Assembly (NCBI RefSeq): GCF_009914755.1
Contig: NC_060932.1
DNA from: the human T2T-CHM13v2.0 reference genome, Homo sapiens
Reading direction: 5' to 3' (one strand)
DNA length: 64,000 nucleotides
Shown: positions 27,179-30,619 of the stretch, piece after piece
Layout of the letters: the number at the start of each line of letters is the position of its first letter
Position numbering within the stretch: position 1 is the stretch's first letter
Position numbers and translations under genes: made by a program
The notes under the pieces: model-generated
Database searches by the model: none
What the model was told of the DNA's origin: nothing
The model's input: the letters and a program-made list of their open reading frames with translations, nothing else

Positions 27179-27838
27179 ATGAAGGAGGAGGAAAGTACCT
27201 GGCTTCAATGAGTAACAGGACATTTCCATGGAACAAATTTGTTATTCAGTATCAAAATAGGTACAGGCATATTTGTTTCTCCTGAAGGGGCATTAAAATA
27301 CAACTCACTCAATGTGGGGTCTCCCTGAGTATTTGGGCTGCTTGTGCCATGGTGTCTGTGATGGCTGCTGTTAGTCATGCAGAGCTAGGGGCCACCTTCC
27401 CTAGAAGCGGTGCACAGTATTATTTCCTCAGAAGTTCTCTCAGACACTTTATTGTTTTATTCCATCCCTGTATCAACCTATTTAACACTTCAGCAGGACC
27501 TGGTGCATGTGGATTGATACTAGCAGGGTAGTATCACAGCCTTTCTATCCTGAACGTTTTGTTCCTTAGATGCCAGAGAAATGTTTAGCATTGGAATTCT
27601 GAAGGCTTGAGGAGTGAAAGAGGTGACATGCTGACTCTCAGAACAGTTTTGAGAATGATGGTTCTCTGCTTTATATCTCCAACTGGAATAATGCTGTTGG
27701 TGAGAGAAAGAAAACAGCACTTAGTCAGGTTTGAGAAAGCTTTTCATGCCACAATTCCAGATGCCCCACAGATTGCAGAAGCCTTTCTTCAAGGATTTTA
27801 TGTGTATTCAGGGTGGGGAGTCCTTGTTTGAATAGCAG
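27179..27838 (+). pseudogene. SLC7-family (SLC7A13/Slc7a12-like) amino-acid transporter pseudogene, exon 1
   Basis: Frame-stitched translation: [46 protein letters not shown] / SLSIWAACAMVSVMAAVSHAELGATFPRSGAQYYFL / QPFYPERFVP*MPEKCLAL / GILKA*GVKEVT / RFEKAFHATIPDAPQIAEAFLQGFYVYSGWGVLV*IA. Contains the LAT motifs IGxGIFVSP, AELG..FP.SG..Y and F..YSGW. Donor site CAG|GTAAAA at 27838. Confidence 0.9.
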
Positions 27839-28302
27839 GTAAAATTTATTTATTTAATTATAAAAACCACCACTAAGCTATAAACATGTAACAACCAAGT
27901 ACTTTAATTCTTAGAAAAAAAAAAACAGTATGTTGCTTTGATATGATGTGTTAAGCTTTTACTTTATTAGAGGGCTGAAATGCAATAAGCTCTCTACACG
28001 TGTGGCCTACCAACTTTGGAGGGTAAAATATCTTTCAGGTATTTACAATTAAAACAAGTGCACATAAATCTGGAGCAGCTTAAAGACTCCAAGGCAATTG
28101 CATTTTTTTCACTGAACAAAATAGTGTATCAGTCTGTTTTTTTTAATTATAATAGAACATCACCAGAGAAAAAATTTAAAATGCAGAAAATATGAATTAA
28201 AATAAAGATTACTTTTAACCAATTATCTCACATGTACACACCTATGGCAGGGGAATCACACTGCACATATAACCTTATAACTTTATTTTACTTAAAGTAC
28301 CT

Positions 28303-28655
28303 TGATATGATTTGCCTGTGTCCCCACCCAAATCTCATCTTGAATCTCCACATGTTGTGGGGGGTACCAAGTGGGAGGTAATTGAATCATGGGGGCAGGT
28401 CTTTCCTGTTCTTTTCTTGCAATAGTGAATAAGTCTCACAAGATCTGATGGTTTTATAAAGGGAGTTTCCCTGCACAAGCTCTATCTGCCTGCTGCCATC
28501 CATGTAAGATGTGACTTGCTCCTCCTTGCCTTCCACCATGATTGTGAGACTTCCCAACCACATGGAACTGTGAGTTCTCCATTAAACCTCTTTCCTTTGT
28601 AAATTTCCCAGCCTTGGGTATGTCTTTATCAGGAGCATGAAAACAAACTAATAGA
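28303..28655 (+). mobile_element. THE1/MST-type MaLR solo LTR
   Basis: TGATATGATTTG..TGTGTCCCCACCCAAATCTCATCTTGAA start, ATTAAA signal, CTAATAGA end, flanks TACCT/TGCCT. Confidence 0.88.
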
Positions 28656-29483
28656 TGCCTAGTGAGAATTTACAGATATTATTAAATATAACTGGGTCTT
28701 AAGAAAACACAGTATTCTATCATATGAATATTTACCATTATTTAACCATTTTCTCCATTGTTGGATCCTAGAGTTGTTTCCAGTTTTTCTCTTTTAAATG
28801 TAACACTTATTGTTGCAATTAGCATCCTTCTACATAAATCTTGGTTGGATCACTCATTGCTCTATTAGAAAAAAAATCTTGAAGTAAAATTACTTAAAAA
28901 AGGATAAAAACATTAAGAAATGTCTTGAGAAATATTGTCCAAGTTGCCTTCCAGAAAGGTTCTACAAATATACCTTAGTGTGACTACCCTTGGCATTATC
29001 ATACCTTTCTTATTCTTTTGCCACTTAGATTTATGAAGATTAAATCTCAGTGTTATATCCCACTTTTTCTCCTATTACTAAAGAAAGGGGAGAGTTTTGC
29101 AAATGATCACAATCATTTATACTTCTTTCTTGTAGGATGGGAGGCAAGTATTTTTTCCCAGCTGGTTCTTCAATTTTTAATTTCATTCATGAGATTTCTA
29201 AGACTTAATATCTATAGTATCAAACTATTGATCTTTTAATTTTTCTCTGTTTTTATACTTAAAAAGTCTTTTCCCATCTCAAGATTTAGATAAATATATA
29301 TACTTTTTTATATAAATACTTTTTCTCTATATTATTATGGTCTTACTTTTTGCATTTTACTCTTTAATGCATGTGAATTACTTTGAAGGGGTTGTATATA
29401 ATTTTTTATTTTCCAAATAGTTAAATACCCATGTCAGTTTTGGTGTTGGCAATATATGCTCAAGTTTAATCCAAGGCTTAACT

Positions 29484-29557
29484 AGTCTAGACACTTAATC
29501 CAACAAGTTAAAAGAACAGGAGTCTAGACACTTAATCCAATGAGTTAAAAGAACAGG
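29484..29557. repeat. 37-bp tandem duplication
   Basis: AGTCTAGACACTTAATCCAA(CA/TG)AGTTAAAAGAACAGG occurs twice. Confidence 0.92.
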
Positions 29558-29794
29558 AGAGTCTACCTGAATGCCCTAGAATATTGTGACCAGATTAAGA
29601 GATAAGCTATTTTAACTCTTCATTAACACAGTTACCATTCTACCATGTCAGCCACAGGGTAGGGCAGGGTTAGCTCCCGTTATGTTCTAGAGTTCAAGGT
29701 TTATGACCTATACTCTTCTTAACCCAAAGGCCCATTTTAAGTATCTCAGAGTATAACATTGAGACCCCAGAATTTAACTCAATTATGATACAAC

Positions 29795-30335
29795 TGTCAG
29801 AGGCGGGTGAACCAGAGCAACTCCATCTTGAATAGGAGCTGGGTAAAACAAGACTAAAACCTACTGGGCTGCATTCCCAGATGGTTAAGGCATTCTAAGT
29901 CACAGGATGAGATAGGAGGTCTGCACGAGATACAGGTCATAAAGACCTTATTGATAAAGCAGATTGCAGTAAAGAAGTCAGCTAAAACCCACCAAAACCA
30001 AGATAGCCATGAGAGTGACCTCTGGTCATCCTCACTGCTACACTCCCACCAGTGCCATGACAGTTTACAAATGCCATGGCAACATCAGGAAGTTACCCTA
30101 AGTGGTCTAAAAAGGGGAGGCATGAATAACCCACTTGTTGTTTAGCATGTAATCAAGAAATAACCATAAAAATGGGCAATCAGCAGCTCTCCAGGCTGCT
30201 CTATGGTGTAACCATTCTTTTATTCTACTTTCTTAATGAACTTGCTTTCATTTCATGGACTTGCCCTGAATTCTTTCTTGTGCAAGATCCAAGAACCCTC
30301 TCTTGGGGTCTGGATTGGACCCCTTTCCTGTAACA
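29795..30335 (+). mobile_element. MER41 solo LTR (MER41A-like, lacks the GAS block)
   Basis: TGTCAGAGGCG..GAACCAGAGCAACTCCATCTTG start, CCTGTAACA end and a perfect 4-bp TSD CAAC. AAAAAGGGGAGG is followed directly by CATGAATAA. Confidence 0.9.
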
Positions 30336-30487
30336 CAACTAGAGTCAACAATGTGCCAGAGACATGGTAAACATTCAACAAAAATGAACAAATGAGCTCT
30401 TGTTGTTTGCAGACTCATTTATTTTTCTTATTATATATTATAGTGAAGGCACTTTCAAAGGTTACATAGAAAGCCTTTTTTTCTCAG

Positions 30488-30619
30488 GAGATCTGAAAAA
30501 GCCTAGTGAAAATATCCCCAAATGTGTAATTACTGCACCTACCCCTGTGGCACTGATTTACTTATTGGTTAAAACGTCCTACCTAATAGTCCGGACTCCA
30601 GAGGGAATCGGGTTCTCAG
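30488..30619 (+). pseudogene. SLC7-family pseudogene, exon 2 (132 nt, open frame)
   Basis: Acceptor TTTTTTTCTCAG| and donor CAG|GTATGG. Encodes GDLKKPSENIPKCVITAPTPVALIYLLVKTSYLIVRTPEGIGFS, comparable to SLC7A13 GELKKPRTTIPKCIFTALPLVTVVYLLVNISYLTVLTP (recalled). Phase is compatible with exon 1. Confidence 0.9.

What the first reader, a model, noticed from the sequence alone, without database searches (positions are those of the whole stretch)
27179..30619. Fossil SLC7 amino-acid transporter gene upstream of LRRCC1: candidate lost orthologue of rodent Slc7a12 (Asc-2)
Seen: two exons with intact GT/AG sites, a 2.65-kb intron and compatible phases. They translate, across at least 4 in-frame stops and several frameshifts, into the N-terminal half of a LAT-family transporter. 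The ORF track shows only fragments of it. Known (from recall): the closest relatives are SLC7A13/AGT1 and mouse Slc7a12/Asc-2, mouse Slc7a12 lies just upstream of Lrrcc1, and Slc7a12 is generally described as having no functional human orthologue. Inference: this is an intron-retaining unitary pseudogene recording a lineage-specific loss of a renal neutral amino-acid transporter, not a retrocopy. It may already be annotated under an anonymous locus name.
Basis: partly seen in the sequence, partly recalled or inferred. Interest (0 to 1): 0.8.

Follow-up and report, generated by a model that had tools for sequence, protein, structure and literature searches.

The report
Dead amino-acid transporter gene beside LRRCC1
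This is the broken front half of an amino-acid transporter gene that our ancestors lost; it is the remnant of an unnamed sister gene of rodent Slc7a12 that is still whole in horses, cattle, rabbits and sloths, not of Slc7a12 itself.

Summary
Window 27179-27838 and 30488-30619 (+) are exons 1 and 2 of an SLC7 light-chain transporter gene. They cover residues 1-~272 of ~490. The intron is 2649 nt with GT/AG ends. The exon boundaries match those of human SLC7A13.

Exon 1 has 4 in-frame stops and 4 frameshifts. An Alu sits inside the first codons. Exon 2 is clean. Exons 3-4 were not found anywhere in the genome.

This is an unprocessed, unitary pseudogene. It is not a retrocopy and not a recent SLC7A13 copy: DNA identity to SLC7A13 exon 1 is 60.5%.

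It is not the orthologue of rodent Slc7a12. A rooted tree gives three eutherian groups:
- true SLC7A13;
- clade B, which holds all rodent Slc7a12 plus carnivores, whales, goat and Tupaia;
- clade A, labelled only "SLC7A13-like", in horse, rhino, ruminants, camelids, whale, lagomorphs, colugo, hedgehog, shrew, sloth and elephant shrews.

The fossil nests in clade A (support 99/97). Identity is 59-70% to A, 46-53% to B and 44-48% to SLC7A13.

No primate or rodent clade-A protein appeared among the rows listed. No clade-B relic was found in the human genome. RefSeq already marks exon 1 as LOC100422614.

The parts
26850..26863 (+). Upstream copy of the Alu target-site duplication (aaaaatgaagaagg). 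It contains a first copy of the start codon (26855-26857). The original 5'UTR would lie upstream of it.
   Evidence: 13 of 14 bases identical to 27175-27188.
26864..27178 (+). Alu element with a pure poly(A) tail of about 42 nt (27138-27179, where the last A doubles as the A of the ATG). It is inserted within the first codons of the dead gene.
   Evidence: for the sequence. The identification as Alu rests on recall of the consensus and on NCBI's repeat mask 26840-27197 in the hub table.
27179..27838 (+). Exon 1 of the pseudogene, residues 1-~228. It has 4 in-frame stops (27209, 27567, 27608, 27829) and 4 frameshifts (~27320, ~27529, ~27591, ~27629-34). The conserved Cys of the PGC(S/L)VPE motif is replaced by Arg.
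27839..30487 (+). Retained intron 1, 2649 nt, GT...AG. It holds a repeat at 28309-28655.
   Evidence: hub repeat mask.
30488..30619 (+). Exon 2, 132 nt, 44 codons, phase 1/1, no stop or frameshift. It has the same length and boundaries as exon 2 of human SLC7A13. Donor GT at 30620-30621.
30620..47870 (+). Interval up to the LRRCC1 start, where exons 3-4 (residues ~273-490) would be expected. No remnant was detectable.
   Evidence: tblastn; HMM; blastn with SLC7A13 exons 3 and 4; frameshift-tolerant best score 51, controls 41-51, positive controls 585 and 153; whole-genome searches.
27205..27693 (-). Annotated last exon of the predicted lncRNA LOC105375933. It is antisense to fossil exon 1.
   Evidence: Hub annotation table only; not tested here.

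Best explanation
This is a dead, unprocessed (unitary) gene. It is the human relic of a third eutherian member of the SLC7A12/SLC7A13 group of light chains of heteromeric amino-acid transporters. I call that member clade A; databases label it only 'SLC7A13-like'.

Shown here:
- Clade A and the Slc7a12 clade (clade B) are sister groups. They arose by a duplication in the eutherian stem.
- Clade A is intact in many orders, and the human copy is broken.
- Only exons 1-2 survive. They carry 4 stops, 4 frameshifts, an Alu in the first codons and loss of a conserved cysteine. The 3' 45% of the gene is gone.
- The locus cannot encode a transporter. Humans keep only SLC7A13 from this subfamily.

Inferred:
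- The ancestral product was a 12-helix APC-fold exchanger that paired with an SLC3 heavy chain, like its relatives.
- The loss is old, in stem or early primates. The fossil's protein-level branch is 4-7 times those of intact orthologues. No primate clade-A protein was listed.
- Three of the four stops lie at Arg positions, which fits CGA>TGA decay.
For: Reality and anatomy of the fossil.

Identity over about 257 columns:
- clade A 59-70% (14 rows);
- clade B 46-53% (16 rows; mouse Slc7a12 47.0%);
- SLC7A13 44-48% (12 rows).

Careful tree: 52 rows, 272 columns, LG+C20+F+G4, rooted on 4 sauropsids.
- A plus the fossil 99/97.
- B, including every rodent Slc7a12 row, 100/99.
- A+B 96/90.
- SLC7A13 100/100.
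- The fossil is nested among boreoeutherian A rows.

Other tests:
- AU tests.
- Diagnostic columns: 22 A-state, 1 B-state, 7 neither, of 30.
- Each exon taken alone is closest to A.
- The result holds when the read-through is guided by a B or an SLC7A13 protein. Mean identities are then 0.63-0.66 to A, 0.48-0.50 to B and 0.44-0.45 to SLC7A13.
- The N-terminus is of A type. Four of the six B rows printed (Globicephala, Tupaia, mouse, rat) start 6 residues later; Catagonus and Capra do not.
- Whole-genome searches with A and B proteins found only SLC7A13 and this fossil on chr8.
- Among the 22 rows at least 75% identical to colugo clade A, there is no primate and no rodent.
Against: - The AU test that lets the fossil sit anywhere with clade B rejects only marginally (p 0.043). 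Clade B's membership was fixed after a first tree had been seen.
- The fossil is a long branch (0.42 against a median of 0.11). Only the N-terminal 55% is available.
- In a FastTree of all 156 proteins the node joining my A reference rows has support 0.048, and the two Sorex rows fall outside it. In the careful tree Sorex araneus is inside A.
- The marsupial placement has only 87/75 support.
- The protein lists are the best 120 of 248 and of 305 hits from a word-indexed search. Absence of primate or rodent clade-A proteins is therefore not proof of loss.
- From recall, mouse Slc7a12 occupies the same position relative to Lrrcc1. That would fit positional orthology unless A and B are tandem neighbours.
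Confidence: 0.82

Rival explanations
1. It is the lost human orthologue of rodent Slc7a12 (Asc-2).
For: Same subfamily. Clade B is the sister group of the fossil's clade. By recall, mouse Slc7a12 lies just upstream of Lrrcc1 on chr3. PMC4020814 (passages read) places Slc7a12 at mm9 chr3:14.48-14.51 Mb. Only one fossil exists near human LRRCC1. The AU test for a basal position with B gives only p 0.043.
Against: Tree support for A plus the fossil is 99/97, and for B without it 100/99. Holding the fossil with Tupaia and the rodents costs 82.7 lnL (p 3e-14). Diagnostic columns are 22 to 1. Identity to mouse Slc7a12 is 47.0%, against 59-70% to A. The result is stable under B-guided read-through. 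A and B coexist as separate proteins in blue whale and goat.
Confidence: 0.08
2. It is a duplicated piece of primate SLC7A13, as RefSeq's name 'SLC7A13 pseudogene' might suggest.
For: Best PDB match of an exon-1 piece is SLC7A13, 8wk6_B (E 1.3e-8). SLC7A13 lies about 1.8 Mb away on the same chromosome. The exon structure is the same.
Against: DNA identity to human SLC7A13 exon 1 is only 60.5% over 684 columns (66% in the best blocks). The SLC7A13 clade, with Cercocebus, Carlito, Lemur and Daubentonia, is 100/100 and excludes the fossil. Identity to catarrhine SLC7A13 is 45.5%. The PDB holds no clade-A or clade-B protein, so SLC7A13 is simply the nearest entry available there.
Confidence: 0.01
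3. It is a processed retrocopy of an SLC7 mRNA.
For: A poly(A) run abuts the start codon.
Against: That poly(A) is the tail of an Alu with its own 14-nt target-site duplication. A 2649-nt intron with GT/AG interrupts the coding sequence at exactly the SLC7A13 exon 1/2 junction.
Confidence: 0.01
4. The relic has a second life. Exon 1 serves, in antisense, as the terminal exon of lncRNA LOC105375933, which starts head-to-head with LRRCC1. This reading is compatible with the best explanation.
For: Hub annotation only: predicted transcript exons 27205-27693, 28736-28861 and 48192-48495 (-).
Against: It is a predicted model. No expression or conservation data could be examined here. No function is implied by the overlap.
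Confidence: 0.1

Closest known systems
Clade A 'SLC7A13-like' genes of non-primate mammals (e.g. P0009 Cynocephalus volans, P0006 Equus quagga, P0007 Muntiacus, P0019 Lepus, P0012 Choloepus)
   Same: The fossil nests in this clade (99/97). Identity is 59-70% despite the decay. It shares the A-type N-terminus and the motifs YSGWGVLV and PSENIPKCVITA.
   Different: Those are intact proteins of about 490 aa. The human locus has 8 disabling lesions plus an Alu, and lacks residues ~273-490.
Slc7a12 / Asc-2 (rodents; clade B also in carnivores, cetartiodactyls, Tupaia, colugo)
   Same: Sister paralogue (A+B 96/90). Same subfamily. Probably the same chromosomal neighbourhood (recall).
   Different: A separate clade (100/99). 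Identity to the fossil is 46-53%. The N-terminus is 6 residues shorter in four of the six B rows viewed. The known function of Asc-2 as a small-neutral-amino-acid exchanger is recalled, not tested. It cannot simply be transferred to clade A.
SLC7A13 / AGT1 (human gene at chr8:87.33-87.35 Mb in this assembly; PDB 8wk6_B)
   Same: Same four-exon layout for the part that can be compared. Exon 1 ends identically and exon 2 is 132 nt. It is the nearest solved structure for an intact clade-A protein (E 8.9e-166).
   Different: An older split; it lies outside the marsupial+A+B group. Protein identity is 44-48% and DNA identity 60.5%.
RefSeq LOC100422614 'solute carrier family 7 member 13 pseudogene'
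   Same: The same locus; its span 27248-27819 lies inside exon 1.
   Different: The record lacks the first 69 nt including the ATG, the last 19 nt of exon 1, and all of exon 2. Its name points to SLC7A13, not to the true parent lineage. No paper mentions it.
SLC7A15P / arpAT (a LAT light chain intact in mouse, pseudogene in human)
   Same: A precedent for a LAT-family gene silenced in the human lineage. PMC8478756 (passage) lists SLC7A15P as a pseudogene while mouse Slc7a15 is functional.
   Different: A different subfamily and locus. A weak SLC7 match at chr2:20.43 Mb may be that gene; this was not checked.

Membership tests
SLC7 LAT-type light chains (APC fold, Pfam AA_permease_2 PF13520) | Significant sequence match to the family | tested here: met
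   Family HMM of 16 relatives: E 5e-28, 6.5e-27, 6.6e-14 and 6e-13 for the four pieces. Pfam on single pieces is weak: only 1 of 4 pieces hit, E 6.5e-4, 19.2 bits, below the cutoff of 27. All 33 full-length relatives carry PF13520 as a precomputed assignment.
SLC7 LAT-type light chains (APC fold, Pfam AA_permease_2 PF13520) | Open reading frame for the whole ~470-500 aa, 12-helix protein | tested here: not met
   4 stops and 4 frameshifts in exon 1. Residues ~273-490 are absent. It is a relic, not a working member.
SLC7 LAT-type light chains (APC fold, Pfam AA_permease_2 PF13520) | Conserved cysteine between helices 3 and 4. Its role in the disulfide to the SLC3 heavy chain is recalled, not tested. 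| tested here: not met
   All 6 rows printed from A, B, SLC7A13 and alligator have C in (G/S/A)C(S/P/L)(V/A)P. The fossil has R (PERFVP).
Clade A ('SLC7A13-like') orthologous group | Falls inside the clade in a rooted tree, and each exon is closest to it | tested here: met
   Support 99/97. Exon 1 is 58-71% and exon 2 61-75% identical to A, higher than to B or SLC7A13. The guide-bias control holds.
Slc7a12 (Asc-2) orthologous group | Clusters with rodent Slc7a12 | tested here: not met
   p 0.043; 22:1; p 3e-14.
Slc7a12 (Asc-2) orthologous group | Conserved position next to Lrrcc1 in other mammals | not testable with these tools
   No non-human mammalian genome is held. Searches found no paper naming Slc7a12 together with Lrrcc1 or E2f5.
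SLC7A13 (AGT1) group or recent duplicate of it | Nests within (primate) SLC7A13, with high DNA identity | tested here: not met
   The SLC7A13 clade at 100/100 excludes it. DNA identity is 60.5%.
Unitary (unprocessed, no functional copy) pseudogene | Introns retained at ancestral positions | tested here: met
   Intron 1 sits at the same junction as in SLC7A13, with GT/AG kept. Exon 2 is 132 nt in both.
Unitary (unprocessed, no functional copy) pseudogene | No intact copy of the same gene elsewhere in the genome | tested here: met
   Six-frame searches of the whole assembly with A and B proteins. On chr8 the close matches are only SLC7A13 and this locus. All other hits are at most 49% identical; by recall they are other SLC7 genes.

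The most novel reading that the evidence does not exclude
Eutherians ancestrally carried three genes of the AGT1/Asc-2 type, not two. The third, clade A, is an uncharacterised transporter light chain. It is still intact in ungulates, whales, lagomorphs, colugo, eulipotyphlans, sloth and elephant shrews. It has gone unnoticed because both human and mouse lack it.

Retention looks mosaic and partly reciprocal. Rodents and carnivores keep B. Lagomorphs and perissodactyls keep A. Cetartiodactyls and colugos keep both. Primates keep neither.

If A and B are tandem neighbours upstream of LRRCC1 in the order A-B-LRRCC1, one deletion could explain two things at once. A deletion from A's intron 2 to beyond B would remove exons 3-4 of the fossil and every trace of a human SLC7A12.
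Probability: 0.55. Interest if true: 0.55.

Novelty: new member of a known kind. Interest (0 to 1): 0.4.

Why it matters
It corrects the identity of a human pseudogene.

It also points to an unnamed, apparently functional SLC7 light chain in many farm and model mammals, including horse, cattle, goat, camelids and rabbit. Neither human nor mouse studies can reveal this gene.

It shows that Slc7a12 is not rodent-specific, contrary to a passage in PMC5568366. Clade B includes carnivores, whales, goat, peccary and Tupaia.

For human biology, it suggests that SLC7A13 is the only survivor of an ancestral trio in this subfamily. That bears on how rodent renal amino-acid transport data are carried over to humans.

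Tried and rejected
- Search for exons 3-4. I used tblastn with six relatives, a family HMM on six-frame pieces, blastn with human SLC7A13 exon 3 and 4 DNA, and a frameshift-tolerant alignment with strand and region controls. All were negative.
- A weak, colinear, plus-strand tblastn hit at 43845-44123 (E 1.8 and 4.6) lies next to the top frameshift-tolerant score, which ends at ~44150-44280. That score is 51, and the control regions also reach 51. I rejected it as chance.
- A blastn hit of SLC7A13 exon 4 at 11710-11902 (E 0.001 under lenient scoring) lies in AT-rich DNA. All frames there are full of stops and there is no protein-level similarity. Rejected. The output was needlessly long and was cut.
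- Second, clade-B fossil in the human genome: none found with whale B or Tupaia B (E up to 10).
- Strict diagnostic columns (85% majority in both clades) left only 2 columns, both in the A state. I relaxed the threshold to 60%.
- Literature. There are no papers for LOC100422614, 'SLC7A13 pseudogene', Slc7a12+Lrrcc1 or Slc7a12+E2f5. No listed paper describes a third paralogue.
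Full report
**What is there**

In the stop-to-stop ORF list of 26800-31200, four plus-strand pieces read like an SLC7 transporter. A profile built from 16 full-length relatives was run over all 3479 six-frame pieces of the 64-kb window. It hit only these four:
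- 27286-27528, E 5e-28;
- 27589-27828, E 6.5e-27;
- 30388-30630, E 6.6e-14;
- 27212-27325, E 6e-13.

The next hit had E 1.9. tblastn with six relatives gave the same picture.

A frameshift-aware alignment to clade-A proteins reads exon 1 from ATG 27179-27181 to 27838. The lesions in exon 1 are:
- TGA at 27209;
- a frameshift of -1 at about 27320;
- a frameshift of -1 at about 27529;
- TAG at 27567;
- a frameshifting deletion of roughly six codons at about 27591;
- TGA at 27608;
- a 4-nt loss at about 27629-34;
- TGA at 27829.

The exact solution between 27590 and 27635 differs with the guide protein. The number of frame changes, four, follows from the frames on either side. Three of the four stops align with Arg in the relatives, which fits CGA>TGA decay. 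This last point is inference.

Exon 1 ends ...atagcag|gtaaaa. Exon 2 is 30488-30619: 132 nt, 44 codons, phase 1/1, flanked by AG and GT, with no lesion. The intron is 2649 nt.

**Gene structure**

Human SLC7A13 was found in the same assembly at chr8:87.33-87.35 Mb on the minus strand, as four exon matches. Its exon 1 ends ...atagcag|gtaaca and its exon 2 is 132 nt with the same phase. So the fossil keeps an ancestral intron. It is an unprocessed gene, not a retrocopy.

The poly(A) next to the ATG belongs to an Alu. Its 14-nt target-site duplication (26850-26863 and 27175-27188, 13 of 14 identical) contains the start codon. The Alu therefore sits inside the first codons. The identification as Alu is by recall and by NCBI's mask.

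**What is missing**

Nothing for residues ~273-490 was found in the window or elsewhere near it. The tests were:
- tblastn and the HMM;
- blastn with SLC7A13 exon 3 and 4 DNA, where the exon 1 control aligned at 60.5% over 684 columns, E 5e-48;
- a frameshift-tolerant search of 30620-47870, with a best score of 51, against 41-51 in four control stretches and 585 and 153 for the positive controls;
- whole-genome six-frame searches.

**Which gene it was**

A read-through of exon 1 (stops as X) was searched against the large protein collection. It returned 33 mammalian proteins in two identity bands. Searches with a protein from each band (each listing the best 120 of 248 and of 305) supplied the following named sequences:
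- mouse and rat Slc7a12;
- many rodent paralogues;
- true SLC7A13 of many orders, including five primates;
- marsupial and platypus genes;
- sauropsid outgroups.

Over about 257 comparable columns the fossil is 59-70% identical to 14 clade-A rows. It is 46-53% identical to 16 clade-B rows (mouse Slc7a12 47.0%) and 44-48% to 12 SLC7A13 rows (catarrhine 45.5%).

A careful tree was built from 52 rows and 272 columns under LG+C20+F+G4, rooted on four sauropsids. Its topology is:

(platypus, (SLC7A13 100/100, (marsupials 100/100, (A + fossil 99/97, B 100/99) 96/90) 87/75) 98/92)

Every rodent Slc7a12 row lies in B. So do Tupaia, Mustela, Panthera, Catagonus, Globicephala and Capra. The fossil lies among boreoeutherian A rows. 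An earlier quick tree on 484 columns agreed.

Further tests:
- Forcing the fossil to join Tupaia plus rodent B costs 82.7 lnL (AU p 3e-14).
- Forcing it to join all of B anywhere costs 22.9 lnL (p 0.043). This is only a marginal rejection, and B's membership was defined after the first tree.
- In 30 columns where 60% majorities of A and B differ, the fossil has the A state in 22, the B state in 1, and neither in 7.
- Each exon alone prefers A.
- The preference survives when the read-through is guided by whale B, mouse Slc7a12 or elephant SLC7A13.
- The fossil's ATG and first 19 residues match the A-type N-terminus. Globicephala, Tupaia, mouse and rat B proteins start six residues later; Catagonus and Capra B rows do not.

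**Weak points**

- The fossil is a long branch (0.42 against a median of 0.11).
- Only the front 55% of the protein exists.
- A FastTree of all 156 proteins gave the A reference node support of only 0.048 and left both Sorex rows just outside it. B (63 rows, 1.0) and SLC7A13 (40 rows, 0.978) were clear.

**Distribution**

These counts come from the rows listed and are not exhaustive.
- Clade A holds cetartiodactyls, perissodactyls, hedgehog, lagomorphs, colugo, sloth and elephant shrews. The shrews sit beside it in that tree.
- Clade B holds rodents, carnivores, cetartiodactyls, Tupaia and a colugo.
- Primates appear only in SLC7A13.
- None of the 22 rows at least 75% identical to colugo clade A is a primate or a rodent.
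- The human genome shows no second relic when searched with whale or Tupaia B proteins.

**Timing (inference)**

From the boreoeutherian A node, the path to the fossil is about 0.43 changes per site, against about 0.06-0.11 for intact orthologues. By my rough reckoning that is about what fully neutral drift over most of the primate stem and crown would give. Together with the absence of primate A proteins, this points to an old loss, after the split from colugos. It needs the primate comparison described under next steps.

**Literature**

- PMC4020814 (passages) places mouse Slc7a12 at mm9 chr3:14,480,700-14,508,500. It places a transcribed paralogue, Gm6300, about 125 kb upstream.
- In my tree a mouse protein (P0074) and 'Slc7a12 like 1' (P0069) form a rodent-internal B duplicate. 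Whether either is Gm6300 was not checked.
- PMC5568366 (passage) lists Slc7a12 as rodent-specific. Clade B contradicts that.
- PMC8246967, PMC8478756 and PMC7584034 (passages) only list family members.
- No paper names LOC100422614 or 'SLC7A13 pseudogene'.
- No paper pairs Slc7a12 with Lrrcc1 or with E2f5.
- The adjacency of mouse Slc7a12 and Lrrcc1, the transport functions of Asc-2 and AGT1, the heavy-chain role of the cysteine, and the arpAT precedent are recalled, not tested.

**Verdict**

It is wrong about the parent gene. The parent is the unnamed sister paralogue of Slc7a12. The locus is already in RefSeq as an anonymous pseudogene covering part of exon 1.

Noticed in passing
window 26850-27188: An Alu with a pure poly(A) tail of about 42 nt is inserted within the first codons of the dead gene. 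Its 14-nt target-site duplication contains the ATG, so the start codon occurs twice (26855 and 27179).
   Followed up: partly
window 27205-27693 and 28736-28861 (-): The predicted lncRNA LOC105375933 starts head-to-head with LRRCC1. It ends in an exon antisense to fossil exon 1, and one of its exons lies in the fossil's intron (hub annotation).
   Followed up: no
window 28309-28655 (-) and about 31066-31440 (+): Two repeat copies translate to the ...IQDEIWVGTQ(A/P)NHI... motif. By recall this is typical of MaLR (THE1/MST-type) LTRs. One lies in intron 1 and one lies after exon 2.
   Followed up: no
proteins P0026, P0029, P0030, P0032, P0034, P0023: Slc7a12 orthologues (clade B) exist in whales, goat, peccary, mustelids, cats and Tupaia. 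The gene is therefore not rodent-specific, as one database paper states (PMC5568366).
   Followed up: partly
proteins P0071, P0072, P0075, P0078: The four marsupial proteins in the tree, all labelled SLC7A13, group with the eutherian A+B pair (87/75) and not with eutherian SLC7A13. They may be pro-orthologues of A and B.
   Followed up: partly
G000:C2:20420146-20430155 (+): Weak, stop-containing SLC7-like matches on chr2 at 20.42-20.43 Mb. This may be the SLC7A15P/arpAT pseudogene (recall); not examined.
   Followed up: no
proteins P0074 and P0069: A rodent-internal duplicate of Slc7a12 (100/100), sister to mouse and rat Slc7a12. It may correspond to the transcribed 'pseudogene' Gm6300 of PMC4020814.
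   Followed up: no
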